A DNA stretch of 64,000 bases from Eledone cirrhosa. Its lineage: Eukaryota. Shown in pieces: positions 8,052 through 53,103 of this stretch. A program made the position numbers and the translations under genes. The notes beneath the pieces were generated by a model, which worked only from the letters and a program-made list of their open reading frames with translations, made no database searches and was not told where the DNA came from. The stretch lies in the NCBI GenBank assembly GCA_964016885.1, contig OZ024742.1:68076001-68140000 (forward strand). Reading direction: 5' to 3'. Each line of letters opens with the position of its first letter. Positions within the stretch are counted from its first letter, which is position 1.

Positions 8052-8664
8052 GGTATGTCAGGTCACCAGCTGGTGCTACTGGTAATATGTATCCCAGTAC
8101 AACCTGTCTCATGGTCGGGTCGTTGGCGACTAAACTGGCAGCCCCACCAAGGTTTCTTGGTGAGGAGGGTGACTTTGGACATCCTGCAGGACTAAAAACA
8201 AAACCTGTCAAAGGGCAAAGGAGCTCTTAAGAGTCAGTGGCCATCCAAAATCACCGGGAGAGATGACCCTTTAGCCTTTGTCAAGGCAGAATTCTAGGAG
8301 AAGGAAAACTCTGATATAACACCTGCAACTCTGATGGTATCCAATGATGTTGACTTGTTCTTCTTTTTGGTAAATATCATCTTGGTTAAGAGAGTGGGAC
8401 TGGCTTTGTGCAGTGCCTTTGCTCACTATAAAAGCTTCACGGCACAGGCATTGCTTTATGTCTGGAGATCTCTCTGCACTTGTCGTCACATGGTACCATG
8501 GGCCCAGCACTATGTGTCAATAATTGTCACAAGTGTAGTGTTTGTACCAGAGTTTTCATGTCGCTGGCTGGACTAAAAAGTCACACTCGTTCAGCGCATC
8601 CGTAGGGGTTCTCCTACATGGATATAAAGTAGTGGCCGTACTCGAAAACGAGTTGGCAGCCACC
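8052..8664 (+). mobile_element. Internally deleted, non-autonomous RTE-like element (first of 27 copies; last ends at 32455)
   Basis: 5' part resembles RTE 5' UTRs (caccaag/cttggtg hairpin, ggagaaggaaaactctga); 3' part encodes CSVCTRVFMSLAGLKSHTRSAH like the RTE ORF2 terminal zinc finger; terminal hairpin actcg-aaaa-cgagt then (TA)n; no RT or endonuclease sequence. Confidence 0.65.
8498..8605 (+). other. 35-codon micro-ORF encoding a single C2H2 zinc finger (MGPALCVNNCHKCSVCTRVFMSLAGLKSHTRSAHP*), repeated in array units
   Basis: Manual translation; C-x2-C-x3-F-x5-L-x2-H-x4-H spacing; ACCATGG start context; below the ORF-track length cutoff; likely an RTE ORF2 relic. Confidence 0.55.
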
Positions 8665-8718
8665 ATATATATATATAGATAGATGTGAGAAAAACCACAG
8701 ACCCTCCATCTCAACTCA

Positions 8719-8756
8719 CCTTTTGAGAAGCAGAAGAACTGCGAAACCGGTAAAGG
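8719..8756 (+). ncRNA. Minimal type I hammerhead ribozyme motif, U3-A8 core variant; first of 26 copies (others start at 9653, 10567, 11511, 12435, 13365, 14258, 15199, 16089, 17021, 17937, 18836, 19762, 20645, 21536, 22452, 23395, 24294, 25225, 26133, 27042, 27934, 28878, 29776, 30690, 31620)
   Basis: cctt-TTGAGAA-gcag-aagaa-ctgc-GAAA-ccgg-TA-aagg: stem I cctt/aagg, stem II gcag/ctgc, palindromic stem III, GUA cleavage triplet, AATAAA just downstream. Confidence 0.75.
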
Positions 8757-8888
8757 AACCAAATAAATATATATATTTTTTTAAAAAATAAGACTCCAGT
8801 TGCATTTTCGATTTCATCTCTTTTTCTTTATACTTTCACTCGTGTAGGACACCTCGGTTATTTTTCATTTTGTAAAAAAAAACCTCAC

Positions 8889-8988
<100 letters not shown>

Positions 8989-9822
8989 ATGTATGTATGT
9001 ATGTTGGTGCTACTGGTAACATGTATCCCAGTACAACCTGTCTCATGGTCGGGTGGTTGGCGACTAAACTGGCAACCCCACCAAGGTTTCTTGGTGAGGA
9101 GGGTGACTTTGGACATCCTGCAGGACTAAAAACAAAACCTGTCAAAGGGCAAAGGAGCTCTTAAGAGTCAATGGCCATCCAAAATCACCGGGAGAGATGA
9201 CCCCTTAGCCTTTGTCAAGGCAGAATTCTAGGAGAAGGAAAACTCTGATATAACACCTGCAACCCTGATGGTATCCAATGATGTTGACTTGTTCTTCTTT
9301 TTGGTAAATATCATCTTGGTTAAGAGAGTCGGACTGGCTTTGTGCAGTGCCTTTGCTCACTATAAAAGCTTCACGGCACAGGCATTGCTTTATATCTGGA
9401 GATCTCTCTGCACTTGTCGTCACATGGTACCATGGGCCCAGCACTATGTGTCAATAATTGTCACAAGTGTAGTGTTTGTACCAGAGTTTTCATGTCGCTG
9501 GCTGGACTAAAAAGTCACACTCGTTCAGCGCATCCGTACGGGTTCTCCTACATGGATATAAAGTAGTGGCCGTACTCGAAAACGAGTTGGCAGCCACCAT
9601 ATATATATATAGATAGATGTGAGAAAAACCACAGACCCTCCATCTCAACTCACCTTTTGAAAAGCAGAAGAACTGCGAAACCGGTAAAGGAACCAAATAA
9701 ATATATATATTTTTTTAAAAAATAAGACTCCAGTTGCATTTTCGATTTCATCTCTTTTTCTTTATACTTTCATTCGTGTAGGACACCTCGGTTATTTTTC
9801 ATTTTGTAAAAAAAAACCTCAC

Positions 9823-9898
<76 letters not shown>

Positions 9899-10736
9899 GT
9901 GTATGTATGTATGTATGTTGATGCTACTGGTAACATGTATCCCAGTACAACCTGTCTCATGGTCGGGTCGTTGGCGACTAAACTGGCAACCCCACCAAGG
10001 TTTCTTGGTGAGGAGGGTGACTTTGGACATCCTGCAGGACTAAAAACAAAACCTGTCAAAGGGCAAAGGAGCTCTTAAGAGTCAATGGCCATCCAAAATC
10101 ACCGGGAGAGATGACCCCTTAGCCTTTGTCAAGGCAGAATTTTAGGAGAAGGAAAACTCTGATATAACACCTGCAACCCTGATGGTATCCAATGATGTTG
10201 ACTTGTTCTTCTTTTTGGTAAATATCATCTTGGTTAAGAGAGTCGGACTGGCTTTGTGCAGTGCCTTTGCTCACTATAAAAGCTTCACGGCACAGGCATT
10301 GCTTTATATCTGGAGATCTCTCTGCACTTGTCGTCACATGGTACCATGGGCCCAGCACTATGTGTCAATAATTGTCACAAGTGTAGTGTTTGTACCAGAG
10401 TTTTCATGTCGCTGGCTGGACTAAAAAGTCACACTCGTTCAGCGCATCCGTAGGGGTTCTCCTACATGGATATAAAGTAGTGGCCGTACTCGAAAACGAG
10501 TTGGCAGCCACCATATATATATATAGATAGATGTGAGAAAAACCACAGACCCTCCATCTCAACTCACCTTTTGAAAAGCAGAAGAACTGCGAAACCGGTA
10601 AAGGAACCAAATAAATATATATATTTTTTTTAAAAATAAGACTCCAGTTGCATTTTCGATTTCATCTCTTTTTCGTTATACTTTCATTCGTGTAGGACAC
10701 CTCGGTTATTTTTCATTTTGTAAAAAAAAACCTCAC

Positions 10737-10846
<110 letters not shown>

Positions 10847-11680
10847 ATGTATGTATGTATGTTGATGCTACTGGTAACATGTATCCCAGTACAACCTGTC
10901 TCATGGTCGGCTCGTTGGCGACTAAACTGGCAACCCCACCAAGGTTTCTTGGTGAGGAGGGTGACTTTGGACATCCTGCAGGACTAAAAACAAAACCTGT
11001 CAAAGGGCAAAGGAGCTCTTAAGAGTCAATGGGCATCCAAAATCACCGGGAGAGATGACCCCTTAGCCTTTGTCAAGGCAGAATTCTAGGAGAAGGAAAA
11101 CTCTCATATAACACCTGCAACCCTGATGGTATCCAATGATGTTGACTTGTTCTTCTTTTTGGTAAATATCATCTTGGTTAAGAGAGTCGGACTGGCTTTG
11201 TGCAGTGCCTTTGCTCACTATAAAAGCTTCACGGCCCAGGCATTGCTTTATATCTGGAGATCTCTCTGCACTTCTCGTCACATGGTACCATGGACCCAGC
11301 ACTATGTGTCAATAATTGTCACAAGTGTAGTGTTTGTACCAGAGTTTTCATGTCGCTGGCTGGACTAAAAAGTCACACTCGTTCAGCGCATCCGTACGGG
11401 TTCTCCTACATGGATATAAAGTAGTGGCCGTACTCGAAAACGAGTTGGCAGCCACCATATATATATATAGATAGATGTGAGAAAAACCACAGACCCTCCA
11501 TCTCAACTCACCTTTTGAAAAGCAGAAGAACTGCGAAACCGGTAAAGGAACCAAATAAATATATATATTTTTTTAAAAAATAAGACTCCAGTTGCATTTT
11601 CGATTTCATCTCTTTTTCTTTATACTTTCATTCGTGTAGGACACCTCGGTTATTTTTCATTTTGTAAAAAAAAACCTCAC

Positions 11681-11766
<86 letters not shown>

Positions 11767-12604
11767 GTGTATGTATGTATGTATGTTGATGCTACTGGTA
11801 ACATGTATCCCAGTACAACCTGTCTCATGGTCGGGTCGTTGGCGACTAAACTGGCAACCCCACCAAGGTTTCTTGGTGAGGAGGGTGACTTTGGACATCC
11901 TGCAGGACTAAAAACAAAACCTGTCAAAGGGCAAAGGAGCTCTTAAGAGTCAATGGCCATCCAAAATCACCGGGAGAGATGACCCCTTAGCCTTTGTCAA
12001 GGCAGAATTTTAGGAGAAGGAAAACTCTGATATAACACCTGCAACCCTGATGGTATCCAATGATGTTGACTTGTTCTTCTTTTTGGTAAATATCATCTTG
12101 GTTAAGAGAGTCGGACTGGCTTTGTGCAGTGCCTTTGCTCACTATAAAAGCTTCACGGCACAGGCATTGCTTTATATCTGGAGATCTCTCTGCACTTGTC
12201 GTCACATGGTACCATGGGCCCAGCACTATGTGTCAATAATTGTCACAAGTGTAGTGTTTGTACCAGAGTTTTCATGTCGCTGGCTGGACTAAAAAGTCAC
12301 ACTCGTTCAGCGCATCCGTAGGGGTTCTCCTACATGGATATAAAGTAGTGGCCGTACTCGAAAACGAGTTGGCAGCCACCATATATATATATAGATAGAT
12401 GTGAGAAAAACCACAGACCCTCCATCTCAACTCACCTTTTGAAAAGCAGAAGAACTGCGAAACCGGTAAAGGAACCAAATAAATATATATATTTTTTTTA
12501 AAAATAAGACTCCAGTTGCATTTTCGATTTCATCTCTTTTTCGTTATACTTTCATTCGTGTAGGACACCTCGGTTATTTTTCATTTTGTAAAAAAAAACC
12601 TCAC

Positions 12605-12700
<96 letters not shown>

Positions 12701-13533
12701 ATGTATGTATGTATGTTGATGCTACTGGTAACATGTATCCCAGTACAACCTGTCTCATGGTCGGCTCGTTGGCGACTAAACTGGCAACCCCACCAAGGTT
12801 TCTTGGTGAGGAGGGTGACTTTGGACATCCTGCAGGACTAAAAACAAAACCTGTCAAAGGGCAAAGGAGCTCTTAAGAGTCAATGGGCATCCAAAATCAC
12901 CGGGAGAGATGACCCCTTAGCCTTTGTCAAGGCAGAATTCTAGGAGAAGGAAAACTCTCATATAACACCTGCAACCCTGATGGTATCCAATGATGTTGAC
13001 TTGTTCTTCTTTTTGGTAAATATCATCTTGGTTAAGAGAGTCGGACTGGCTTTGTGCAGTGCCTTTGCTCACTATAAAAGCTTCACGGCCCAGGCATTGC
13101 TTTATATCTGGAGATCTCTCTGCACTTCTCGTCACATGGTACCATGGACCCAGCACTATGTGTCAATAATTGTCACAAGTGTAGTGTTTGTACCAGAGTT
13201 TTCATGTCGCTGGCTGGACTAAAAAGTCACACTCGTTCAGCGCATGCGTAGGGGTTCTCCTACATGGATATAAAGTAGTGGCCGTACTCGAAAACGAGTT
13301 GGCAGCCACCATATATATATATAGATAGATGTGAGAAAAACCACAGACCCTCCATCTCAACTCACCTTTTGAAAAGCAGAAGAACTGCGAAACCGGTAAA
13401 GGAACCAAATAAATATATATATTTTTTAAAAAAATAAGACTCCAGTTGCATTTCGATTTCATCTCTTTTTCTTTATACTTTCACTCGTGTAGGACACCTC
13501 GGTTATTTTTCATTTTGTAAAAAAAAACCTCAC

Positions 13534-13593
<60 letters not shown>

Positions 13594-14426
13594 ATGTATG
13601 TATGTATGTTGGTGCTACTGGTAACATGTATCCCAGTACAACCTGTCTCATGGTCGGGTCGTTGGCGACTAAACTGGCAACCCCACCAAGGTTTCTTGGT
13701 GAGGAGGGTCACTTTGGACATCCTGCAGGACTAAAAACAAAACCTGTCAAGGGGCAAAGGAGCTCTTAAGAGTCAATGGCCATCCAAAATCACCGGGAGA
13801 GATGACCCCTTAGCCTTTGTCAAGGCAGAATTCTAGGAGAAGGAAAACTCTAATATAACACCTGCAACCCTGATGGTATCCAATGATGTTGACTTGCTCT
13901 TCTTTTTGGTAAATATCATCTTGGTTAAGAGAGTCGGACTGGCTTTGTGCAGTGCCTTTGCTCACTATAAAAGCTTCACGGCACAGGCATTGCTTTATAT
14001 CTGGAGATCTCTCTGCACTTGTCGTCACATGGTACCATGGGCCCAGCACTATGTGTCAATAATTGTCACAAGTGTAGTGTTTGTACCAGAGTTTTCATGT
14101 CGCTGGCTGGACTAAAAAGTCACACTCGTTCAGCGCATCCGTAGGGGTTCTCCTACATGGATATAAAGTAGTGGCCGTACTCGAAAACAAGTTGGCAGCC
14201 ACCATATATATATATAGATAGATGTGAGAAAAACCACAGACCCTCCATCTCAACTCACCTTTTGAAAAGCAGAAGAACTGCGAAACCGGTAAAGGAACCA
14301 AATAAATATATATATTTTTTAAAAAAATAAGACTCCAGTTGCATTTCGATTTCATCTCTTTTTCTTTATACTTTCATTCGTGTAGGACACCTCGGTTATT
14401 TTTCATTTTGTAAAAAAAAACCTCAC

Positions 14427-14534
<108 letters not shown>

Positions 14535-15368
14535 ATGTATGTATGTATGTTGATGCTACTGGTAACATGTATCCCAGTACAACCTGTCTCATGGTCGGGT
14601 CGTTGGCGACTAAACTGGCAACCCCACCAAGGTTTCTTGGTGAGGAGGGTGACTTTGGACATCCTGCAGGACTAAAAACAAAACCTGTCAAAGGGCAAAG
14701 GAGCTCTTAAGAGTCAATGGGCATCCAAAATCACCGGGAGAGATGACCCCTTAGCCTTTGTCAAGGCAGAATTCTAGGAGAAGGAAAACTCTCATATAAC
14801 ACCTGCAACCCTGATGGTATCCAATGATGTTGACTTGTTCTTCTTTTTGGTAAATATCATCTTGGTTAAGAGAGTCGGACTGGCTTTGTGCAGTGCCTTT
14901 GCTCACTATAAAAGCTTCACGGCACAGGCATTGCTTTATATCTGGAGATCTCTCTGCACTTGTCGTCACATGGTACCATGGGCCCAGCACTATGTGTCAA
15001 TAATTGTCACAAGTGTAGTGTTTGTACCAGAGTTTTCATGTCGCTGGCTGGACTAAAAAGTCACACTCGTTCAGCGCATGCGTAGGGGTTCTCCTACATG
15101 GATATAAAGTAGTGGCCGTACTCGAAAACGAGTTGGCAGCCACCATATATATATATAGATAGATGTGAGAAAAACCACAGACCCTCCATCTCAACTCACC
15201 TTTTGAGAAGCAGAAGAACTGCGAAACCGGTAAAGGAACCAAATAAATATATATATTTTTTTAAAAAATAAGACTCCAGTTGCATTTTCGATTTCATCTC
15301 TTTTTCTTTATACTTTCACTCGTGTAGGACACCTCGGTTATTTTTCATTTTGTAAAAAAAAACCTCAC

Positions 15369-15424
<56 letters not shown>

Positions 15425-16258
15425 ATGTATGTATGTATGTTGGTGCTACTGGTAACATGTATCCCAGTACAACCTGTCTCATGGTCGGGTGGTTGGCGAC
15501 TAAACTGGCAACCCCACCAAGGTTTCTTGGTGAGGAGGGTGACTTTGGACATCCTGCAGGACTAAAAACAAAACCTGTCAAAGGGCAAAGGAGCTCTTAA
15601 GAGTCAATGGCCATCCAAAATCACCGGAAGAGATGACCCCTTAGCCTTTGTCAAGGCAGAATTCTAGGAGAAGGAAAACTCTGATATAACACCTGCAACC
15701 CTGATGGTATCCAATGATGTTGACTTGTTCTTCTTTTTGGTAAATATCATCTTGGTTAAGAGAGTCGGACTGGCTTTGTGCAGTGCCTTTGCTCACTATA
15801 AAAGCTTCACGGCACAGGCATTGCTTTATATCTGGAGATCTCTCTGCACTTGTCGTCACATGGTACCATGGGCCCAGCACTATGTGTCAATAATTGTCAC
15901 AAGTGTAGTGTTTGTACCAGAGTTTTCATGTCGCTGGCTGGACTAAAAAGTCACACTCGTTCAGCGCATCCGTACGGGTTCTCCTACATGGATATAAAGT
16001 AGTGGCCGTACTCGAAAACGAGTTGGCAGCCACCATATATATATATAGATAGATGTGAGAAAAACCACAGACCCTCCATCTCAACTCACCTTTTGAAAAG
16101 CAGAAGAACTGCGAAACCGGTAAAGGAACCAAATAAATATATATATTTTTTTAAAAAATAAGACTCCAGTTGCATTTTCGATTTCATCTCTTTTTCTTTA
16201 TACTTTCATTCGTGTAGGACACCTCGGTTATTTTTCATTTTGTAAAAAAAAACCTCAC

Positions 16259-16352
<94 letters not shown>

Positions 16353-17190
16353 GTGTATGTATGTATGTATGTTGATGCTACTGGTAACATGTATCCCAGT
16401 ACAACCTGTCTCATGGTCGGGTCGTTGGCGACTAAACTGGCAACCCCACCAAGGTTTCTTGGTGAGGAGGGTGACTTTGGACATCCTGCAGGACTAAAAA
16501 CAAAACCTGTCAAAGGGCAAAGGAGCTCTTAAGAGTCAATGGCCATCCAAAATCACCGGGAGAGATGACCCCTTAGCCTTTGTCAAGGCAGAATTTTAGG
16601 AGAAGGAAAACTCTGATATAACACCTGCAACCCTGATGGTATCCAATGATGTTGACTTGTTCTTCTTTTTGGTAAATATCATCTTGGTTAAGAGAGTCGG
16701 ACTGGCTTTGTGCAGTGCCTTTGCTCACTATAAAAGCTTCACGGCACAGGCATTGCTTTATATCTGGAGATCTCTCTGCACTTGTCGTCACATGGTACCA
16801 TGGGCCCAGCACTATGTGTCAATAATTGTCACAAGTGTAGTGTTTGTACCAGAGTTTTCATGTCGCTGGCTGGACTAAAAAGTCACACTCGTTCAGCGCA
16901 TCCGTAGGGGTTCTCCTACATGGATATAAAGTAGTGGCCGTACTCGAAAACGAGTTGGCAGCCACCATATATATATATAGATAGATGTGAGAAAAACCAC
17001 AGACCCTCCATCTCAACTCACCTTTTGAAAAGCAGAAGAACTGCGAAACCGGTAAAGGAACCAAATAAATATATATATTTTTTTTAAAAATAAGACTCCA
17101 GTTGCATTTTCGATTTCATCTCTTTTTCTTTATACTTTCATTCGTGTAGGACACCTCGGTTATTTTTCATTTTGTAAAAAAAAACCTCAC

Positions 17191-17272
<82 letters not shown>

Positions 17273-18105
17273 ATGTATGTATGTATGTTGATGCTACTGG
17301 TAACATGTATCCCAGTACAACCTGTCTCATGGTCGGGTCGTTGGCGACTAAACTGGCAACCCCACCAAGGTTTCTTGGTGAGGAGGGTGACTTTGGACAT
17401 CCTGCAGGACTAAAAACAAAACCTGTCAAAGGGCAAAGGAGCTCTTAAGAGTCAATGGGCATCCAAAATCACCGGGAGAGATGACCCCTTAGCCTTTGTC
17501 AAGGCAGAATTCTAGGAGAAGGAAAACTCTCATATAACACCTGCAACCCTGATGGTATCCAATGATGTTGACTTGTTCTTCTTTTTGGTAAATATCATCT
17601 TGGTTAAGAGAGTCGGACTGGCTTTGTGCAGTGCCTTTGCTCACTATAAAAGCTTCACGGCCCAGGCATTGCTTTATATCTGGAGATCTCTCTGCACTTG
17701 TCGTCACATGGTACCATGGACCCAGCACTATGTGTCAATAATTGTCACAAGTGTAGTGTTTGTACCAGAGTTTTCATGTCGCTGGCTGGACTAAAAAGTC
17801 ACACTCGTTCAGCGCATGCGTAGGGGTTCTCCTACATGGATATAAAGTAGTGGCCGTACTCGAAAACGAGTTGGCAGCCACCATATATATATATAGATAG
17901 ATGTGAGAAAAACCACAGACCCTCCATCTCAACTCACCTTTTGAAAAGCAGAAGAACTGCGAAACCGGTAAAGGAACCAAATAAATATATATATTTTTTA
18001 AAAAAATAAGACTCCAGTTGCATTTCGATTTCATCTCTTTTTCTTTATACTTTCACTCGTGTAGGACACCTCGGTTATTTTTCATTTTGTAAAAAAAAAC
18101 CTCAC

Positions 18106-18171
<66 letters not shown>

Positions 18172-19005
18172 ATGTATGTATGTATGTTGGTGCTACTGGT
18201 AACATGTATCCCAGTACAACCTGTCTCATGGTCGGGTCGTTGGCGACTAAACTGGCAACCCCACCAAGGTTTCTTGGTGAGGAGGGTCACTTTGGACATC
18301 CTGCAGGACTAAAAACAAAACCTGTCAAAGGGCAAAGGAGCTCTTAAGAGTCAATGGCCATCCAAAATCACCGGGAGAGATGACCCCTTAGCCTTTGTCA
18401 AGGCAGAATTCTAGGAGAAGGAAAACTCTAATATAACACCTGCAACCCTGATGGTATCCAATGATGTTGACTTGCTCTTCTTTTTGGTAAATATCATCTT
18501 GGTTAAGAGAGTCGGACTGGCTTTGTGCAGTGCCTTTGCTCACTATAAAAGCTTCACGGCACAGGCATTGCTTTATATCTGGAGATCTCTCTGCACTTGT
18601 CGTCACATGGTACCATGGGCCCAGCACTATGTGTCAATAATTGTCACAAGTGTAGTGTTTGTACCAGAGTTTTCATGTCGCTGGCTGGACTAAAAAGTCA
18701 CACTCGTTCAGCGCATCCGTAGGGGTTCTCCTACATGGATATAAAGTAGTGGCCGTACTCGAAAACGAGTTGGCAGCCACCATATATATATATAGATAGA
18801 TGTGAGAAAAACCACAGACCCTCCATCTCAACTCACCTTTTGAAAAGCAGAAGAACTGCGAAACCGGTAAAGGAACCAAATAAATATATATATTTTTTTA
18901 AAAAATAAGACTCCAGTTGCATTTTCGATTTCATCTCGTTTTCTTTATACTTTCATTCGTGTAGGACACCTCGGTTATTTTTCATTTTGTAAAAAAAAAC
19001 CTCAC

Positions 19006-19097
<92 letters not shown>

Positions 19098-19930
19098 ATG
19101 TATGTATGTATGTTGATGCTACTGGTAACATGTATCCCAGTACAACCTGTCTCATGGTCGGGTCGTTGGCGACTAAACTGGCAACCCCACCAAGGTTTCT
19201 TGGTGAGGAGGGTGACTTTGGACATCCTGCAGGACTAAAAACAAAACCTGTCAAAGGGCAAAGGAGCTCTTAAGAGTCAATGGGCATCCAAAATCACCGG
19301 GAGAGATGACCCCTTAGCCTTTGTCAAGGCAGAATTCTAGGAGAAGGAAAACTCTCATATAACACCTGCAACCCTGATGGTATCCAATGATGTTGACTTG
19401 TTCTTCTTTTTGGTAAATATCATCTTGGTTAAGAGAGTCGGACTGGCTTTGTGCAGTGCCTTTGCTCACTATAAAAGCTTCACGGCACAGGCATTGCTTT
19501 ATATCAGGAGATCTCTCTGCACTTGTCGTCACATGGTACCATGGGCCCAGCACTATGTGTCAATAATTGTCACAAGTGTAGTGTTTGTACCAGAGTTTTC
19601 ATGTCGCTGGCTGGACTAAAAAGTCACACTCGTTCAGCGCATGCGTAGGGGTTCTCCTACATGGATATAAAGTAGTGGCCGTACTCGAAAACGAGTTGGC
19701 AGCCACCATATATATATATAGATAGATGTGAGAAAAACCACAGACCCTCCATCTCAACTCACCTTTTGAAAAGCAGAAGAACTGCGAAACCGGTAAAGGA
19801 ACCAAATAAATATATATATTTTTTAAAAAAATAAGACTCCAGTTGCATTTCGATTTCATCTCTTTTTCTTTATACTTTCACTCGTGTAGGACACCTCGGT
19901 TATTTTTCATTTTGTAAAAAAAAACCTCAC

Positions 19931-19984
<54 letters not shown>

Positions 19985-20813
19985 ATGTATGTATGTTGGT
20001 GCTACTGGTAACATGTATCCCAGTACAACCTGTCTCATGGTCGGGTCGTTGGCGACTAAACTGGCAACCCCACCAAGGTTTCTTGGTGAGGAGGGTCACT
20101 TTGGACATCCTGCAGGACTAAAAACAAAACCTGTCAAAGGGCAAAGGAGCTCTTAAGAGTCAATGGGCATCCAAAATCACCGGGAGAGATGACCCCTTAG
20201 CCTTTGTCAAGGCAGAATTCTAGGAGAAGGAAAACTCTCATATAACACCTGCAACCCTGATGGTATCCAATGATGTTGACTTGTTCTTCTTTTTGGTAAA
20301 TATCATCTTGGTTAAGAGAGTCGGACTGGCTTTGTGCAGTGCCTTTGCTCACTATAAAAGCTTCACGGCACAGGCATTGCTTTATATCTGGAGATCTCTC
20401 TGCACTTGTCGTCACATGGTACCATGGACCCAGCACTATGTGTCAATAATTGTCACAAGTGTAGTGTTTGTACCAGAGTTTTCATGTCGCTGGCTGGACT
20501 AAAAAGTCACACTTGTTCAGCGCATGCGTAGGGGTTCTCCTACATGGATATAAAGTAGTGGCCGTACTCGCAAACGAGTTGGCAGCCACCATATATATAT
20601 ATAGATAGATGTGAGAAAAACCACAGACCCTCCATCTCAACTCACCTTTTGAAAAGCAGAAGAACTGCGAAACCGGTAAAGGAACCAAATAAATATATAT
20701 ATTTTTTAAAAAAATAAGACTCCAGTTGCATTTCGATTTCATCTCTTTTTCTTTATACTTTCACTCGTGTAGGACACCTCGGTTATTTTTCATTTTGTAA
20801 AAAAAAACCTCAC

Positions 20814-20881
<68 letters not shown>

Positions 20882-21705
20882 GTATGTTGGTGCTACTGGT
20901 AACATGTATCCCAGTACAACCTGTCTCATGGTCGGGTCGTTGGCGACTAAACTGGCAACCCCACCAAGGTTTCTTGGTGAGGAGGGTCACTTTGGACATC
21001 CTGCAGGACTAAAAACAAAACCTGTCTAGGGGCAAAGGAGCTCTTAAGAGTCAATGGCCATCAAAAATCACCGGGAGAGATGACCCCTTAGCCTTTGTCA
21101 AGGCAGAATTCTAGGAGAAGGAAAACTCTAATATAACACCTGCAACCCTGATGGTATCCAATGATGTTGACTTGCTCTTCTTTTTGGTAAATATCATCTT
21201 GGTTAAGAGAGTCGGACTGGCTTTGTGCAGTGCCTTTGCTCACTATAAAAGCCTCACGGCACAGGCATTGCTTTATATCTGGAGATCTCTCTGCACTTGT
21301 CGTCACATGGTACCATGGGCCCAGCACTATGTGTCAATAATTGTCACAAGTGTAGTGTTTGTACCAGAGTTTTCATGTCGCTGGCTGGACTAAAAAGTCA
21401 CACTCGTTCAGCGCATCCGTAGGGGTTCTCCTACATGGATATAAAGTAGTGGCCGTACTCGAAAACAAGTTGGCAGCCACCATATATATATATAGATAGA
21501 TGTGAGAAAAACCACAGACCCTCCATCTCAACTCACCTTTTGAAAAGCAGAAGAAATGCGAAACCGGTAAAGGAACCAAATAAATATATATATTTTTTTA
21601 AAAAATAAGACTCCAGTTGCATTTTCGATTTCATCTCTTTTTCTTTATACTTTCATTCGTGTAGGACACCTCGGTTATTTTTCATTTTGTAAAAAAAAAC
21701 CTCAC

Positions 21706-21787
<82 letters not shown>

Positions 21788-22620
21788 ATGTATGTATGTA
21801 TGTTGATGCTACTGGTAACATGTATCCCAGTACAACCTGTCTCATGGTCGGGTCGTTGGCGACTAAACTGGCAACCCCACCAAGGTTTCTTGGTGAGGAG
21901 GGTGACTTTGGACATCCTGCAGGACTAAAAACAAAACCTGTCAAAGGGCAAAGGAGCTCTTAAGAGTCAATGGGCATCCAAAATCACCGGGAGAGATGAC
22001 CCCTTAGCCTTTGTCAAGGCAGAATTCTAGGAGAAGGAAAACTCTCATATAACACCTGCAACCCTGATGGTATCCAATGATGTTGACTTGTTCTTCTTTT
22101 TGGTAAATATCATCTTGGTTAAGAGAGTCGGACTGGCTTTGTGCAGTGCCTTTGCTCACTATAAAAGCTTCACGGCACAGGCATTGCTTTATATCTGGAG
22201 ATCTCTCTGCACTTGTCGTCACATGGTACCATGGGCCCAGCACTATGTGTCAATAATTGTCACAAGTGTAGTGTTTGTACCAGAGTTTTCATGTCGCTGG
22301 CTGGACTAAAAAGTCACACTCGTTCAGCGCATGCGTAGGGGTTCTCCTACATGGATATAAAGTAGTGGCCGTACTCGAAAACGAGTTGGCAGCCACCATA
22401 TATATATATAGATAGATGTGAGAAAAACCACAGACCCTCCATCTCAACTCACCTTTTGAAAAGCAGAAGAACTGCGAAACCGGTAAAGGAACCAAATAAA
22501 TATATATATTTTTTAAAAAAATAAGACTCCAGTTGCATTTCGATTTCATCTCTTTTTCTTTATACTTTCACTCGTGTAGGACACCTCGGTTATTTTTCAT
22601 TTTGTAAAAAAAAACCTCAC

Positions 22621-22730
<110 letters not shown>

Positions 22731-23563
22731 ATGTATGTATGTATGTTGGTGCTACTGGTAACATGTATCCCAGTACAACCTGTCTCATGGTCGGGTCGTT
22801 GGCGACTAAACTGGCAACCCCACCAAGGTTTCTTGGTGAGGAGGGTCACTTTGGACATCCTGCAGGACTAAAAACAAAACCTGTCAAAGGGCAAAGGAGC
22901 TCTTAAGAGTCAATGGCCATCCAAAATCACCGGGAGAGATGACCCCTTAGCCTTTGTCAAGGCAGAATTCTAGGAGAAGGAAAACTCTGATATAACACCT
23001 GCAACCCTGATGGTATCCAATGATGTTGACTTGTTCTTCTTTTTGGAAAATATCATCTTGGTTAAGAGAGTCGGACTGGCTTTGTGCAGTGCCTTTGCTC
23101 ACTATAAAAACTTCACGGCACAGGCATTGCTTTATATCTGGAGATCTCTCTGCACTTGTCGTCACATGGTACCATGGGCCCAGCACTATGTGTCAATAAT
23201 TGTCACAAGTGTAGTGTTTGTACCAGAGTTTTCATGTCGCTGGCTGGACTAAAAAGTCACACTCGTTCAGCGCATGCGTAGGGGTTCTCTTACATGGATA
23301 TAAAGTAGTGGCCGTACTCGAAAACGAGTTGGCAGCCACCATATATATATATAGATAGATGTGAGAAAAACCACAGACCCTCCATCTCAATTCACCTTTT
23401 GAAAAGCAGAAGAACTGCGAAACCGGTAAAGGAACCAAATAAATATATATATTTTTTAAAAAAATAAGACTCCAGTTGCATTTCGATTTCATCTCTTTTT
23501 CTTTATACTTTCAATCGTGTAGGACACCTCGGTTATTTTTCATTTTGTAAAAAAAAACCTCAC

Positions 23564-23629
<66 letters not shown>

Positions 23630-24462
23630 ATGTATGTATGTATGTTGATGCTACTGGTAACATGTATCCCAGTACAACCTGTCTCATGGTCGGGTCGTTG
23701 GCGACTAAACTGGCAACCCCACCAAGGTTTCTTGGTGAGGAGGGTGACTTTGGACATCCTGCAGGACTAAAAACAAAACCTGTCAAAGGGCAAAGGAGCT
23801 CTTAAGAGTCAATGGGCATCCAAAATCACCGGGAGAGATGACCCCTTAGCCTTTGTCAAGGCAGAATTCTAGGAGAAGGAAAACTCTCATATAACACCTG
23901 CAACCCTGATGGTATCCAATGATGTTGACTTGTTCTTCTTTTTGGTAAATATCATCTTGGTTAAGAGAGTCGGACTGGCTTTGTGCAGTGCCTTTGCTCA
24001 CTATAAAAGCTTCACGGCACAGGCATTGCTTTATATCTGGAGATCTCTCTGCACTTGTCGTCACATGGTACCATGGGCCCAGCACTATGTGTCAATAATT
24101 GTCACAAGTGTAGTGTTTGTACCAGAGTTTTCATGTCGCTGGCTGGACTAAAAAGTCACACTCGTTCAGCGCATGCGTAGGGGTTCTCCTACATGGATAT
24201 AAAGTAGTGGCCGTACTCGAAAACGAGTTGGCAGCCACCATATATATATATAGATAGATGTGAGAAAAACCACAGACCCTCCATCTCAACTCACCTTTTG
24301 AAAAGCAGAAGAACTGCGAAACCGGTAAAGGAACCAAATAAATATATATATTTTTTAAAAAAATAAGACTCCAGTTGCATTTCGATTTCATCTCTTTTTC
24401 TTTATACTTTCACTCGTGTAGGACACCTCGGTTATTTTTCATTTTGTAAAAAAAAACCTCAC

Positions 24463-24560
<98 letters not shown>

Positions 24561-25394
24561 ATGTATGTATGTATGTTGGTGCTACTGGTAACATGTATCC
24601 CAGTACAACCTGTCTCATGGTCGGGTCGTTGGCGACTAAACTGGCAACCCCACCAAGGTTTCTTGGTGAGGAGGGTCACTTTGGACATCCTGCAGGACTA
24701 AAAACAAAACCTGTCAAAGGGCAAAGGAGCTCTTAAGAGTCAATGGCCATCCAAAATCACCGGGAGAGATGACCCCTTAGCCTTTGTCAAGGCAGAATTC
24801 TAGGAGAAGGAAAACTCTGATATAACACCTGCAACCCTGATGGTATCCAATGATGTTGACTTGTTCTTCTTTTTGGAAAATATCATCTTGGTTAAGAGAG
24901 TCGGACTGGCTTTGTGCAGTGCCTTTGCTCACTATAAAAACTTCACGGCACAGGCATTGCTTTATATCTGGAGATCTCTCTGCACTTGTCGTCACATGGT
25001 ACCATGGGCCCAGCACTATGTGTCAATAATTGTCACAAGTGTAGTGTTTGTACCAGAGTTTTCATGTCGCTGGCTGGACTAAAAAGTCACACTCGTTCAG
25101 CGCATCCGTAGGGGTTCTCCTACATGGATATAAAGTAGTGGCCGTACTCGAAAACGAGTTGGCAGCCACCATATATATATATAGATAGATGTGAGAAAAA
25201 CCACAGACCCTCCATCTCAACTCACCTTTTGAAAAGCAGAAGAACTGCGAAACCGGTAAAGGAACCAAATAAATATATATATTTTTTTAAAAAATAAGAC
25301 TCCAGTTGCATTTTCGATTTCATCTCTTTTTCTTTATACTTTCATTCGTGTAGGACACCTCGGTTATTTTTCATTTTGTAAAAAAAAACCTCAC

Positions 25395-25468
<74 letters not shown>

Positions 25469-26301
25469 ATGTATGTATGTATGTTGATGCTACTGGTAAC
25501 ATGTATCCCAGTACAACCTGTCTCATGGTCGGGTCGTTGGCGACTAAACTGGCAACCCCACCAAGGTTTCTTGGTGAGGAGGGTGACTTTGGACATCCTG
25601 CAGGACTAAAAACAAAACCTGTCAAAGGGCAAAGGAGCTCTTAAGAGTCAATGGGCATCCAAAATCACCGGGAGAGATGACCCCTTAGCCTTTGTCAAGG
25701 CAGAATTCTAGGAGAAGGAAAACTCTCATATAACACCTACAACCCTGATGGTATCCAATGATGTTGACTTGTTCTTCTTTTTGGTAAATATCATCTTGGT
25801 TAAGAGAGTCGGACTGGCTTTGTGCAGTGCCTTTGCTCACTATAAAAGCTTCACGGCACAGGCATTGCTTTATATCTGGAGATCTCTCTGCACTTGTCGT
25901 CACATGGTACCATGGGCCCAGCACTATGTGTCAATAATTGTCACAAGTGTAGTGTTTGTACCAGAGTTTTCATGTCGCTGGCTGGACTAAAAAGTCACAC
26001 TCGTTCAGCGCATGCGTAGGGGTTCTCTTACATGGATATAAAGTAGTGGCCGTACTCGAAAACGAGTTGGCAGCCACCATATATATATATAGATAGATGT
26101 GAGAAAAACCACAGACCCTCCATCTCAATTCACCTTTTGAAAAGCAGAAGAACTGCGAAACCGGTAAAGGAACCAAATAAATATATATATTTTTTAAAAA
26201 AATAAGACTCCAGTTGCATTTCGATTTCATCTCTTTTTCTTTATACTTTCAATCGTGTAGGACACCTCGGTTATTTTTCATTTTGTAAAAAAAAACCTCA
26301 C

Positions 26302-26377
<76 letters not shown>

Positions 26378-27211
26378 ATGTATGTATGTATGTTGGTGCT
26401 ACTGGTAACATGTATCCCAGTACAACCTGTCTCATGGTCGGGTCGTTGGCGACTAAACTGGCAACCCCACCAAGGTTTCTTGGTGAGGAGGGTCACTTTG
26501 GACATCATGCAGGACTAAAAACAAAACCTGTCAAAGGGCAAAGGAGCTCTTAAGTGTCAATGGCCATCCAAAATCACCGGGAGAGATGACCCCTTAGCCT
26601 TTGTCAAGGCAGAATTCTAGGAGAAGGAAAACTCTGATATAACACCTGCAACCCTGATGGTATCCAATGATGTTGACTTGTTCTTCTTTTTGGTAAATAT
26701 CATCTTGGTTAAGAGAGTCGGACTGGCTTTGTGCAGTGCCTTTGCTCACTATAAAAGCTTCACGGCACAGGCATTGCTTTATATCTGGAGATCTCTCTGC
26801 ACTTGTCGTCACATGGTACCATGGGCCCAGCACTATGTGTCAATATTTGTCACAAGTGTAGTGTTTGTACCAGAGTTTTCATGTCGCTGGCTGGACTAAA
26901 AAGTCACACTCGTTCAGCGCATCCGTAGGGGTTCTCCTACATGGATATAAAGTAGTGGCCGTACTCGAAAACGAGTTGGCAGCCACCATATATATATATA
27001 GATAGATGTGAGAAAAACCACAGACCCTCCATCTCAACTCACCTTTTGAAAAGCAGAAGAACTGCGAAACCGGTAAAGGAACCAAATAAATATATATATT
27101 TTTTAAATAAATAAGACTCCAGTTGCATTTTCGATTTCATCTCTTTTTCTTTATACTTTCACTCGTGTAGGACACCTCGGTTATTTTTCATTTTGTAAAA
27201 AAAAACCTCAC

Positions 27212-27261
<50 letters not shown>

Positions 27262-28103
27262 ATGTATGTATGTATGTATGTATGTTGGTGCTACTGGTAA
27301 CATGTATCCCAGTACAACCTGTCTCATGGTCGGGTCGTTGGCGACTAAACTGGCAACCCCACCAAGGTTTCTTGGTGAGGAGGGTCACTTTGGACATCCT
27401 GCAGGACTAAAAACAAAACCTGTCAAAGGGCAAAGGAGCTCTTAAGAGTCAATGGCCATCCAAAATCACCGGGAGAGATGACCCCTTAGCCTTTGTCAAG
27501 GCAGAATTCTAGGAGAAGGAAAACTCTGATATAACACCTGCAACCCTGATGGTATCCAATGATGTTGACTTGCTCTTCTTTTTGGTAAATATCATCTTGG
27601 TTAAGAGAGTCGGACTGGCTTTGTGCAGTGCCTTTGCTCACTATAAAAGCTTCACGGCACAGGCATTGCTTTATATCTGGAGATCTCTCTGCACTTGTCG
27701 TCACATGGTACCATGGGCCCAGCACTATGTGTCAATAATTGTCACAAGTGTAGTGTTTGTACCAGAGTTTTCATGTCGCTGGCTGGACTAAAAAGTCACA
27801 CTCGTTCAGCGCATCCGTAGGGGTTCTCCTACATGGATATAAAGTAGTGGCCGTACTCGAAAACGAGTTGGCAGCCACCATATATATATATAGATAGATG
27901 TGAGAAAAACCACAGACCCTCCATCTCAACTCACCTTTTGAAAAGCAGAAGAACTGCGAAACCGGTAAAGGAACCAAATAAATATATATATTTTTTTAAA
28001 AAATAAGACTCCAGTTGCATTTTCGATTTCATCTCTTTTTCTTTATACTTTCATTCGTGTAGGACACCTCGGTTATTTTTCATTTTGTAAAAAAAAACCT
28101 CAC

Positions 28104-28213
<110 letters not shown>

Positions 28214-29047
28214 ATGTATGTATGTATGTTGATGCTACTGGTAACATGTATCCCAGTACAACCTGTCTCATGGTCGGGTCGTTGGCGACTAAACTGGCAA
28301 CCCCACCAAGGTTTCTTGGTGAGGAGGGTGACTTTGGACATCCTGCAGGACTAAAAACAAAACCTGTCAAAGGGCAAAGGAGCTCTTAAGAGTCAATGGG
28401 CATCCAAAATCACCGGGAGAGATGACCCCTTAGCCTTTGTCAAGGCAGAATTCTAGGAGAAGGAAAACTCTGATATAACACCTGCAACCCTGATGGTATC
28501 CAATGATGTTGACTTGTTCTTCTTTTTGGTAAATATCATCTTGGTTAAGAGAGTCGGACTGGCTTTGTGCAGTGCCTTTGCTCACTATAAAAGCTTCACG
28601 GCACAGGCATTGCTTTATATCTGGAGATCTCTCTGCACTTGTCGTCACATGGTACCATGGGCCCAGCACTATGTGTCAATAATTGTCACAAGTGTAGTGT
28701 TTGTACCAGAGTTTTCATGTCGCTGGCTGGACTAAAAAGTCACACTCGTTCAGCGCATGCGTAGGGGTTCTCCTACATGGATATAAAGTAGTGGCCGTAC
28801 TCGAAAACGAGTTGGCAGCCACCATATATATATATAGATAGATGTGAGAAAAACCACAGACCCTCCATCTCAACTCACCTTTTGAAAAGCAGAAGAACTG
28901 CGAAACCGGTAAAGGAACCAAATAAATATATATATTTTTTTAAAAAATAAGACTCCAGTTGCATTTTCGATTTCATCTCTTTTTCTTTATACTTTCATTC
29001 GTGTAGGACACCTCGGTTATTTTTCATTTTGTAAAAAAAAACCTCAC

Positions 29048-29111
<64 letters not shown>

Positions 29112-29945
29112 ATGTATGTATGTATGTTGATGCTACTGGTAACATGTATCCCAGTACAACCTGTCTCATGGTCGGGTCGTTGGCGACTAAACTGGCAACC
29201 CCACCAAGGTTTCTTGGTGAGGAGGGTGACTTTGGACATCCTGCAGGACTAAAAACAAAACCTGTCAAAGGGCAAAGGAGCTCTTAAGAGTCAATGGGCA
29301 TCCAAAATCACCGGGAGAGATGACCCCTTAGCCTTTGTCAAGGCAGAATTCTAGGAGAAGGAAAACTCTCATATAACACCTGCAACCCTGATGGTATCCA
29401 ATGATGTTGACTTGTTCTTCTTTTTGGTAAATATCATCTTGGTTAAGAGAGTCGGACTGGCTTTGTGCAGTGCCTTTGCTCACTATAAAAGCTTCACGGC
29501 ACAGGCATTGCTTTATATCTGGAGATCTCTCTGCACTTGTCGTCACATGGTACCATGGGCCCAGCACTATGTGTCAATAATTGTCACAAGTGTAGTGTTT
29601 GTACCAGAGTTTTCATGTCGCTGGCTGGACTAAAAAGTCACACTCGTTCAGCGCATGCGTAGGGGTTCTCCTACATGGATATAAAGTAGTGGCCGTACTC
29701 GAAAACGAGTTGGCAGCCACCATATATATATATAGATAGATGTGAGAAAAACCACAGACCCTCCATCTCAACTCACCTTTTGAAAAGCAGAAGAACTGCG
29801 AAACCGGTAAAGGAACCAAATAAATATATATATTTTTTTAAAAAATAAGACTCCAGTTGCATTTTCGATTTCATCTCTTTTTCTTTATACTTTCATTCGT
29901 GTAGGACACCTCGGTTATTTTTCATTTTGTAAAAAAAAACCTCAC

Positions 29946-30025
<80 letters not shown>

Positions 30026-30859
30026 ATGTATGTATGTATGTTGATGCTACTGGTAACATGTATCCCAGTACAACCTGTCTCATGGTCGGGTCGTTGGCGA
30101 CTAAACTGGCAACCCCACCAAGGTTTCTTGGTGAGGAGGGTGACTTTGGACATCCTGCAGGACTAAAAACAAAACCTGTCAAAGGGCAAAGGAGCTCTTA
30201 AGAGTCAATGGGCATCCAAAATCACCGGGAGAGATGACCCCTTAGCCTTTGTCAAGGCAGAATTCTAGGAGAAGGAAAACTCTCATATAACACCTGCAAC
30301 CCTGATGGTATCCAATGATGTTGACTTGTTCTTCTTTTTGGTAAATATCATCTTGGTTAAGAGAGTCGGACTGGCTTTGTGCAGTGCCTTTGCTCACTAT
30401 AAAAGCTTCACGGCACAGGCATTGCTTTATATCTGGAGATCTCTCTGCACTTGTCGTCACATGGTACCATGGGCCCAGCACTATGTGTCAATAATTGTCA
30501 CAAGTGTAGTGTTTGTACCAGAGTTTTCATCTCGCTGGCTGGACTAAAAAGTCACACTCGTTCAGCGCATCCGTAGGGGTTCTCCTACATGGATATAAAG
30601 TAGTGGCCGTACTCGAAAACGAGTTGGCAGCCACCATATATATATATAGATAGATGTGAGAAAAACCACAGACCCTCCATCTCAACTCACCTTTTGAAAA
30701 GCAGAAGAACTGCGAAACTGGTAAAGGAACCAAATAAATATATATATTTTTTAAATAAATAAGACTCCAGTTGCATTTTCGATTTCATCTCTTTTTCTTT
30801 ATACTTTCACTCGTGTAGGACACCTCGGTTATTTTTCATTTTGTAAAAAAAAACCTCAC

Positions 30860-30955
<96 letters not shown>

Positions 30956-31619
30956 ATGTATGTATGTATGTTGGTGCTACTGGTAACATGTATCCCAGTA
31001 CAACCTGTCTCATGGTCGGGTCGTTGGCGACTAAACTGGCAACCCCACCAAGGTTTCTTGGTGAGGAGGGTCACTTTGGACATCATGCAGGACTAAAAAC
31101 AAAACCTGTCAAAGGGCAAAGGAGCTCTTAAGAGTCAATGGCCATCCAAAATCACCGGGAGAGATGACCCCTTAGCCTTTGTCAAGGCAGAATTCTAGGA
31201 GAAGGAAAACTCTGATATAACACCTGCAACCCTGATGGTATCCAATGATGTTGACTTGTTCTTCTTTTTGGTAAATATCATCTTGGTTAAGAGAGTCGGA
31301 CTGGCTTTGTGCAGTGCCTTTGCTCACTATAAAAGCTTCACGGCACAGGCATTGCTTTATATCTGGAGATCTCTCTGCACTTGTCGTCACATGGTACCAT
31401 GGGCCCAGCACTATGTGTCAATATTTGTCACAAGTGTAGTGTTTGTACCAGAGTTTTCATGTCGCTGGCTGGACTAAAAAGTCACACTCGTTCAGCGCAT
31501 CCGTAGGGGTTCTCCTACATGGATATAAAGTAGTGGCCGTACTCGAAAACGAGTTGGCAGCCACCATATATATATATAGATAGATGTGAGAAAAACCACA
31601 GACCCTCCATCTCAACTCA

Positions 31620-31657
31620 CCTTTTGAAAAGCAGAAGAACTGCGAAACCGGTAAAGG
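31620..31657 (+). ncRNA. Last (26th) array hammerhead motif
   Basis: cctt-TTGAAAA-gcagaagaactgc-GAAA-ccgg-TA-aagg. Confidence 0.75.
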
Positions 31658-31789
31658 AACCAAATAAATATATATATTTTTTAAATAAATAAGACTCCAG
31701 TTGCATTTTCGATTTCATCTCTTTTTCTTTATACTTTCACTCGTGTAGGACACCTCGGTTATTTTTCATTTTGTAAAAAAAAACCTCAC

Positions 31790-31837
<48 letters not shown>

Positions 31838-32453
31838 ATGTATGTATGTATGTATGTATGTTGGTGCTACTGGTAACATGTATCCCAGTACAACCTGTCT
31901 CATGGTCGGGTCGTTGGCGACTAAACTGGCAACCCCACCAAGGTTTCTTGGTGAGGAGGGTGACTTTGGACATCCTGCAGGACTAAAAACAAAACCTGTC
32001 AAAGGGCAAAGGAGCTTTTAAGAGTCAATGGCCATCCAAAATCACCGGGAGAGATGACCCCTTAGCCTTTGTCAAGGCAGAATTCTAGGAGAAGGAAAAC
32101 TCTGATATAACACCTGCAACCCTGATGGTATCCAATGATGTTGACTTGTTCTTCTTTTTGGTAAATATCATCTTGGTTAAGAGAGTCGGACTGGCTTTGT
32201 GCAGTGCCTTTGCTCACTATAAAAGCTTCACGGCACAGGCATTGCTTTATATCTGGAGATCTCTCTGCACTTGTCGTCACATGGTACCATTGGCCCAGCA
32301 CTATGTGTCAATAATTGTCACAAGTGTAGTGTTTGTACCAGAGTTTTCAAGTCGCTGGCTGGACTAAAAAGTCACACTCGTTCAGCGCATTGGTAGGGGT
32401 TCTACTACATGGATATAAAGTAGTGGCCGTACTCGAAAACGAGTTGGCAGCCA

Positions 32454-32509
<56 letters not shown>

Positions 32510-37086: not shown

Positions 37087-37212
37087 CAGACTCACTTTAA
37101 GAATAAATCAAGAGAGTAAATACAAACCGGAATTGTGGTAACTACCAATTGTGGTAGTTACCACAATTCCGGTTTGTATTTACTTTCTTGATTTATTCTT
37201 AAACTGAGTCTG
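37087..37212. repeat. Near-perfect ~126 bp palindrome
   Basis: cagactcactttaagaataaatcaag...ccggaattgtggtaactacca / tggtagttaccacaattccgg...cttgatttattcttaaactgagtctg. Confidence 0.9.
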
Positions 37213-52997: not shown

Positions 52998-53054
52998 CTG
53001 CCTGATGAGGTCATAGCTGCTGAATAATGGCAATCACTGAAATATATATAGCAG
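52998..53054 (+). ncRNA. Minimal hammerhead motif at the 3' end of a decayed Penelope-like fragment
   Basis: ctgc-CTGATGA-ggt...act-GAAA-tatata-TA-gcag then AATAAA and (TA)n; upstream relic resembles a GIY-YIG C-terminus (ESY..NGL). Confidence 0.6.
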
Positions 53055-53103
53055 CGAATATGAATAAACGAAGCTAATTTTACCCTCTTGACTTACACGT
53101 CTT

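What the first reader, a model, noticed from the sequence alone, without database searches (positions are those of the whole stretch)
8719..8756. Array ribozyme uses the compensatory U3-A8 core, with polymorphism at the free N7 position
Seen: the core reads UUGANAA rather than CUGANGA, so both partners of the 3-8 pair are changed. N7 is G in the copies at 8719 and 15199 and A in the others. The only other variants noticed are a stem II change (21536 copy, ctgc to atgc) and a stem III change (30690 copy, ccgg to ctgg). Established: C3-G8 is a Watson-Crick tertiary pair, U3-A8 is a known tolerated natural variant, and N7 is unconstrained. Inference: this is a real ribozyme fold that standard CUGANGA searches would miss.
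Basis: partly seen in the sequence, partly recalled or inferred. Interest (0 to 1): 0.75.

Follow-up and report, generated by a model that had tools for sequence, protein, structure and literature searches.

The report
Penelope retrotransposon hammerhead in recombination-born array

Summary
The motif is not a property of the array. It is the fixed pLTR motif of a young Neptune-type Penelope-like element: 6,662 exact genomic matches, full-length copies with RT and GIY-YIG frames between two motifs. Support for a real fold comes from comparison: sister families (58% protein identity, unrelated flanks) keep the core and swap stem pairs; with positions 3 and 8 left free, 30 of 30 hammerheads beside foreign PLE genes are Watson-Crick. 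N7 variation is no evidence: 14 variants at N7 against 17 at position 3 and 10 at position 8. The array is a 213-bp PLE stub between two copies of a 610-bp LINE-derived repeat; inner units are hybrids of the first and last copy, and the unit occurs nowhere else, so DNA recombination, not an RNA circle, likely built it. U3-A8 in PLE hammerheads is published (2014), and this scan met it before on other DNA. Cleavage is untested, likely weak and dimer- or protein-dependent.

The parts
8719..8756 (+). Minimal type I hammerhead motif, first copy: stem I 8719-8722/8753-8756 (4 bp), core U3-A9 8723-8729 (N7 = 8727, A8 = 8728), stem II 8730-8733/8739-8742, G12-A15.1 8743-8746, palindromic helix III 8746-8751, A17 = 8752; predicted cut between 8752 and 8753
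   Evidence: sequence, descriptor, folding
8681..8894 (+). 213-bp pLTR stub of a Neptune-type Penelope-like element (family A); starts at the family's main 5'-end hotspot (-73 to -67 from the cut) and ends at the element's 3' end before (TA)n
8054..8664 (+). First copy of a dispersed about 610-bp non-autonomous LINE-derived repeat (RTE-like); ends in a decayed C2H2 frame (8432-8602); donor of the 3' part of the inner units
8895..9004 (+). (TA)n plus (TATG)n spacer; its length (63-123 bp) accounts for the spread of unit lengths
8054..32455 (+). Whole array: 27 LINE-derived repeats alternating with 26 PLE stubs, about 1% mean pairwise divergence
15199..15236 (+). Second G7 copy; shares a further stub variant with the 8719 copy, so likely the same mutation copied
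21536..21573 (+). Copy with a broken outer stem II pair; predicted to refold away from the hammerhead
30690..30727 (+). Copy with a broken helix III palindrome (duplex -8.3 kcal/mol falls to -6.1 with a normal partner, -3.2 with itself)
31865..32455 (+). Last LINE-derived repeat, with no stub behind it; donor of the 5' part of the inner units

Best explanation
The motif is the pLTR hammerhead of a young, abundant Neptune-type Penelope-like retrotransposon, with U3-A8 fixed in the whole family and its sister families; it is predicted to cut weakly after GUA and only as a dimer or with protein help, and the 26 copies here are likely passengers of a DNA recombination event. Shown: family membership, position in both pLTRs of full-length elements, fixation of U3-A8, compensatory stem changes between families, hybrid inner array units. 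Inferred: (1) transcripts start about 73 nt before the cut; reverse transcription from the element's 3' end to that start gave the 213-bp stub, from an uncut RNA; (2) the stub came to lie in (TA)n between two independent insertions of a LINE-derived repeat; (3) unequal exchange between those two repeats, then between units, expanded the array; (4) two motifs pair through the ACCGGU palindrome to form helix III; U3 can also pair with A17 and extend stem I, which would slow cleavage.
For: 6,662 exact matches, reversed control 0, first 100 listed all U3-A7-A8. Of 8 loci fetched around intact frames, all 8 hold a 775-aa or longer RT frame and at least one motif; L085, L086 and L089 have a motif on each side of the frames, 4.68-4.71 kb apart. 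RVT_1 E 1e-6 (28.7 bits, just under the cut-off 29.6) and GIY-YIG E 2e-6; C-x4-C-x2-C linker visible in the frame. Sister family B: 58% RT-EN identity, no DNA likeness outside the frames, yet the same core and palindrome; stem II pairs 2-3 are C-G, A-U in A and A-U, U-A in B and C; stem I pair 2 is U-A against A-U; N7 is A, U or C between families. In 87 foreign PLE loci, with 3 and 8 free, 30 hits in 28 loci: 23 C-G, 5 U-A, 1 A-U, 1 G-C, no mismatch; reversed control 1 hit; 25 distinct families, permutation p 5e-8 without correction for kinship; U-A needs at least 5 changes on a quick RT tree. 5' ends of 111 copies: 55 at -73 to -67, 6 at 0 to +4 from the predicted cut, 8 in the 56 positions before it (p about 0.001 for 5 of 13 ends in 4 of 60 positions). 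Array: all 7 private variants of the first repeat lie in columns 13-387, 5 of 6 of the last in 427-540 (p 0.011); column 323 joins all 25 inner units with the last copy, column 486 with the first; the composite unit matched full length only at the 26 array places.
Against: No cleavage was measured. No Rfam hammerhead model hits and the monomer folds no better than shuffles. In a longer context stem I has only 0.2 pairing probability. Stem I is 2-3 contiguous pairs in the sister families. Most reverse-transcribed RNAs were not cut (55 ends upstream against 6 at the cut). The excess at the cut rests on 5-6 ends, ends beyond +4 could not be placed in the AT tract, and part of the sample was chosen for an intact motif. 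One private variant of the last repeat (column 153) lies on the wrong side of the inferred crossover, and column 527/528 is mixed among inner units. Within family A no C3-G8 copy was found, so the swap itself is seen only between families.
Confidence: 0.82

Rival explanations
1. The array is a retrozyme-like element: the 0.9-kb unit was transcribed, cut by tandem hammerheads, circularised and reverse transcribed into a multimer.
For: One hammerhead per unit, head to tail, all on one strand; tandem copies would give the partner for helix III; animal retrozymes are described as PLE derivatives (bioRxiv 10.64898/2026.07.22.740005, abstract, introduction and part of methods read).
Against: The array begins and ends with the LINE-derived repeat, not at the ribozyme or the PLE end; inner units are hybrids of the two outer repeats; the unit was not found elsewhere among the scored candidates; described animal retrozymes are 150-450 bp with canonical hammerheads (PMC7229834 passages).
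Confidence: 0.06
2. The fold is conserved for another job (protein binding, pLTR structure, RT stop or start signal) and U3-A8 with A17 has made it catalytically silent.
For: U3 pairs with A17 in the predicted ground state, like the inhibitory C3-G17 pair (PMC3884650 passages); most cDNAs run through the site; in an anole PLE, ribozyme mutants did not affect insertion in vitro and no reads ended at the site (PMC11167929 passages).
Against: All catalytic core letters are kept across families whose flanks share nothing; 3-8 covaries strictly; a small excess of 5' ends lies at the predicted cut; the anole PLE ribozyme did cut with protein help.
Confidence: 0.1
3. The resemblance to a hammerhead is chance, or U3-A8 is double decay in one copy that the array multiplied.
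For: No Rfam hit, no folding signal. A decayed copy of another, C3-G8 family at window 39424 also reads U3-A8, so such doubles do arise.
Against: U3-A8 is the state of all but 27 or so of 6,662 matches, of full-length elements and of 92 of the 100 listed matches of a looser pattern that excludes family A (3,394 matches, control 161).
Confidence: 0.02

Closest known systems
Minimal type I hammerheads (min-HHR) in pLTRs of metazoan Penelope-like elements, including the U3-A8 variant of Schistosoma mansoni Cercyon elements (Cervera and De la Pena 2014, PMC4209133; parts 1-2 of 4 read)
   Same: Place in both pLTRs; short stem I, palindromic helix III, G10.1-C11.1; mostly solo or inverted truncated copies; U3-A8 core (about 1,300 hits reported there); predicted dimer.
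   Different: Neptune-type host rather than Cercyon; short 4-bp stem II without the extra nucleotide after A9; 4-nt palindrome; very young and uniform family; A17 able to pair with U3.
Neptune clade PLEs (Craig et al. 2021, PMC8557442; passages read)
   Same: RT, Zn-finger-like linker, C-terminal GIY-YIG; (TA)n targets; partial tandems and 5' inversions; upstream ORF1 joined by a frameshift.
   Different: Clade placed by motifs only; no named Neptune reference was on the tree. 3' UTR about 1 kb.
Natural U3-A8 hammerheads (Perreault et al. 2011, PMC3088659; passages read)
   Same: Same covariation, there stated to be active in vitro by an earlier study.
   Different: Those are not described there as PLE motifs; activity data are for other scaffolds.
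Animal non-LTR retrozymes (PMC7229834 passages; bioRxiv 10.64898/2026.07.22.740005 first part)
   Same: Tandem units with one type I hammerhead each.
   Different: Unit about 0.9 kb, two thirds LINE-derived; minimal rather than canonical ribozyme; single locus; signature of DNA recombination.

Membership tests
Type I minimal hammerhead of PLEs | Core YUGANRA ... GAAA ... UH with Watson-Crick 3-8 pair | tested here: met
   26 of 26 array copies; family-wide
Type I minimal hammerhead of PLEs | Stem II with G10.1-C11.1 and compensatory changes among relatives | tested here: met
   25 of 26 array copies intact
Type I minimal hammerhead of PLEs | Palindromic helix III allowing a dimer | tested here: met
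   same 6-nt palindrome in families A-D; duplex -8.3 kcal/mol, co-fold -20.3 against -6.4 per monomer; computed only
Type I minimal hammerhead of PLEs | Stem I closing the core | tested here: met
   4 bp in A, 2-3 contiguous bp in sister families, one compensatory change
Type I minimal hammerhead of PLEs | Location in the pLTRs of a PLE | tested here: met
   L085, L086, L089; L144 for family B
Type I minimal hammerhead of PLEs | Self-cleavage at H17 | not testable with these tools
   indirect hint only: 6 of 111 genomic 5' ends at 0 to +4
Canonical hammerhead (Rfam models) | Match to an Rfam hammerhead model; loop 1-loop 2 tertiary contact | tested here: not met
   no hammerhead family at gathering score in the window or at E 10 in 8600-9800
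Neptune-type Penelope-like element (parent) | RT followed by C-terminal GIY-YIG endonuclease | tested here: met
   Pfam; homologs carry RVT_1 and GIY-YIG
Neptune-type Penelope-like element (parent) | CX2-5CxxC linker between RT and EN; (TA)n targets; pLTRs, tandems, inversions | tested here: met
   frame and layouts; definition from PMC8557442; the linker is shared with Nematis
Neptune-type Penelope-like element (parent) | Phylogenetic placement with named Neptune elements | not tested
   tree holds no named reference elements
Non-LTR retrozyme (array) | Tandem units each with a type I hammerhead | tested here: met
Non-LTR retrozyme (array) | Unit mobilised to many loci; 150-450 bp | tested here: not met
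   full-length composite only at this locus among scored candidates; unit 883-944 bp
Non-LTR retrozyme (array) | Expressed as unit-length linear and circular RNA | not testable with these tools
   no raw RNA reads were offered

The most novel reading that the evidence does not exclude
The array is a retrozyme in the making, born at the DNA level: recombination between two LINE-derived repeats put 26 PLE ribozymes in tandem, giving each the cis partner that it needs, so that read-through transcripts are cut into 0.9-kb monomers and circles that carry a LINE 5' end and a PLE priming end; the U3-A17 pair acts as a built-in brake that the PLE protein releases.
Probability: 0.08. Interest if true: 0.6.

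Novelty: new member of a known kind. Interest (0 to 1): 0.2.

Why it matters
As found it is ordinary: a further host for a published hammerhead variant. Its practical value is that three or more Neptune-type families with over 10,000 motif copies in this genome are invisible to CUGANGA descriptors and Rfam, so ribozyme censuses undercount. The family is young, uniform and has intact frames, so it is a clean system for the open question of what PLE hammerheads do; the 5'-end map suggests that only about a tenth of reverse-transcribed RNAs were cut. The array is a neat record of a satellite arising by exchange between two dispersed repeats.

Tried and rejected
Rfam at gathering and E-value thresholds: no hammerhead; the mir-283 hit at 37100 is a fold-back palindrome. 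Folding z-scores of single copies: not significant. N7 as a selected free site: rejected (A7G 9 events against A8G 3, p 0.15; any change 13 against 10, p 0.68). Sequencing runs: no RNA holder listed; the two layings used contigs only and showed no starts or ends, so they say nothing on expression or cleavage. MAFFT misplaces the 5' strand of stem II for short-loop families, so pairs were read by position in a script; no covariance model was built. The window copy at 39424 was tested as within-family C3-G8/U3-A8 covariation: its family (20,611 matches) showed 0 U3-A8 among the 100 listed, so it is treated as decay. A search for longer proteins with the repeat's C2H2 remnant found none. The careful RT tree did not finish; the quick tree was used. 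Papers sought by recalled ids and not held: Lunse et al. on PLE dimers, Przybilski and Hammann on 3-8 exchanges; nothing of them was seen, and their rates for U3-A8 may bear on activity. Searches for A3-U8 or G3-C8 natural variants returned only PMC4209133, PMC7151607 and PMC3884650; this does not show absence from print. Supplements were not read; the bioRxiv supplements are closed and may list such families.

Full report
Observation. There are 26 copies of a 38-nt motif on the + strand between 8719 and 31657, 883-944 bp apart; all have UUGANAA, two have G7 (8719, 15199), one has a stem II change (21536) and one a helix III change (30690). In hammerhead numbering the first copy has stem I 8719-8722/8753-8756, U3 8723, N7 8727, A8 8728, a 4-bp stem II, G12-A15.1 at 8743-8746, the palindrome ACCGGU and the triplet GUA with the predicted cut after 8752. 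On its own the copy is unremarkable: no Rfam hammerhead model matches and it folds no better than shuffles.

What the motif belongs to. The 219-bp stretch around it is a dispersed repeat. A pattern with positions 2.1, 3, 7 and 8 free has 6,662 exact matches in the 3.0-Gb genome, none for the reversed control, and the first 100 listed all read U3-A7-A8. Dispersed copies are 5'-truncated, often head-to-head, and sit in (TA)n. Upstream they lead through about 1 kb of UTR into a GIY-YIG frame. A protein search scored 113 matches at 96-100% identity, most without stops. Of 8 loci fetched, all hold the long RT frame and a motif, and three (L085, L086, L089) have a motif on each side, 4.68-4.71 kb apart. 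The frame has RVT_1 (E 1e-6, slightly under Pfam's cut-off) and GIY-YIG matches and a cysteine linker between them, which PMC8557442 (passages) gives as the mark of Neptune and Nematis elements, with (TA)n targeting ascribed to Neptune. So U3-A8 is the state of a young, probably active Penelope-like family (family A), and the array holds only its 213-bp pLTR stub.

Is the fold real? A looser pattern that excludes family A by stem length gave 3,394 matches (control 161); 92 of the 100 listed are U3-A8. They fall into sister families. Family B also has intact 777-aa frames between two motifs, 58% identical to A, with no DNA likeness outside the frames (flanks score like shuffles). Yet core, G10.1-C11.1 and palindrome are the same, stem II pairs 2 and 3 change on both sides, stem I pair 2 flips, and N7 is A, U or C by family. 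As an unbiased test of the 3-8 pair I scanned 87 PLE loci of other organisms with both positions free: 30 hits in 28 loci, 23 C-G, 5 U-A, 1 A-U, 1 G-C, no mismatch, 28 on the sense strand; the reversed control gave 1 hit. After dropping 5 duplicate hits, 25 families remain (permutation p 5e-8, kinship not corrected). On a quick RT tree of these 25 plus A and B, U-A needs 6 changes, at least 5 forced by strong branches (the careful tree did not finish). The swap is thus real and recurrent.

The N7 argument fails. In family A, matches with a change at N7 number 14 (2 of them in this array), at position 8 10, at position 3 17; none is C3-G8. Differences are not significant. These are background mutations in dead copies. 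Inside the array the motif varies in 3 of 38 columns, the flanking repeat in 41 of 591, and two of the three variants harm the fold. The two G7 copies share another variant and likely stem from one event. N7 freedom shows only between families.

How the array arose. It consists of 27 copies of a 610-bp repeat alternating with 26 stubs and (TA)n spacers, beginning and ending with the repeat. The repeat is itself dispersed; its first 195 bases are 83% like a locus that runs on into endonuclease and RT frames and its end holds a decayed C2H2 frame (below cut-off), so it is a LINE derivative; the label RTE is recalled from motifs. All 7 differences of the first copy from the inner majority lie in columns 13-387, and 5 of 6 of the last copy in 427-540 (p 0.011). 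At column 323 all 25 inner copies share a derived letter with the last copy against 20 of 20 dispersed copies; at column 486 they side with the first. Inner units are therefore hybrids, 5' from the right repeat and 3' from the left, as unequal exchange between two independent insertions predicts. One variant (column 153) and a mixed column (527/528) do not fit neatly. The composite unit matched full length only at the 26 array places; the next best matches cover the repeat alone (candidates are capped, so this is not exhaustive).

How the ribozyme likely works. A monomer cannot close helix III; two copies pair through the palindrome (co-fold -20.3 kcal/mol), the dimer model of PMC4209133 (parts 1-2 read), where such motifs cut weakly. 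In an anole PLE the ribozyme cut only with the element's protein, and uncut RNA was the main template (PMC11167929 passages). Here U3 is predicted to pair with A17, like the inhibitory C3-G17 pair (PMC3884650 passages); this is an inference and predicts slow cleavage. The excess at the cut (p about 0.001) is a hint from few ends, with ends further 3' unplaceable and part of the sample chosen for intact motifs. Read at face value, about a tenth of these short templates were cut. The array's stub starts at the upstream hotspot, so it came from an uncut RNA.

Comparison and verdict. U3-A8 is in print as a natural covariation (PMC3088659 passages) and specifically in PLE minimal hammerheads of Schistosoma. 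The ORF1 frameshift of these elements is also known. Earlier notes of this scan report the same variant on other DNA, one in this genome. The array meets the look of a retrozyme but fails the mobility and size tests. Verdict: new member of a known kind; observation confirmed; interpretation partly supported; interest 0.2.

Noticed in passing
L085:3013 and L144:2505 (also L181, L182, L188, L192): ORF1 (409 and 427 aa, no Pfam match) overlaps the RT frame in the -1 phase with the same U UUU UUA slippery heptamer in families A and B and in 4 of 11 foreign loci checked; likely programmed frameshift, of a kind drawn in PMC8557442 Fig. 1.
   Followed up: partly
L231:117 and L226:1969: Hammerheads beside PLE frames of other organisms with G3-C8 and A3-U8 cores and good stems: all four Watson-Crick pairs seem to occur naturally at 3-8. 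One locus each; three literature searches did not show natural A3-U8.
   Followed up: partly
window 60-122 (-) and 343-395 (+); 43510-43565 (-) and 43791-43850 (+); 53002-53055 (+): Canonical C3-G8 hammerhead-like motifs of other families, two as head-to-head fold-backs typical of PLE ends.
   Followed up: no
window 39424-39456: Decayed copy of a C3-G8 hammerhead family with 20,611 genomic matches; this copy reads U3-A8, unlike the 100 matches listed.
   Followed up: partly
window 37090-37210: Near-perfect palindrome that scores as mir-283 on both strands; likely a fold-back of a repeat end rather than a microRNA gene.
   Followed up: no
window 38418-38618: Remnant of a PLE endonuclease frame (46% to family B over 70 aa).
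   Followed up: no
L055:1949 and 2416; L089:7419 and 7860: Another C3-G8 hammerhead family with a 7-bp stem I and covarying stem II; two copies 467 bp apart in L055, retrozyme-like.
   Followed up: no
L113/L114: Another short tandem of the same 610-bp LINE-derived repeat (full copy followed by a 5'-trimmed copy), suggesting that this repeat duplicates readily.
   Followed up: no
L261-L267: PLE contigs sit inside bacterial metagenome-assembled genomes; probably host DNA contamination.
   Followed up: no
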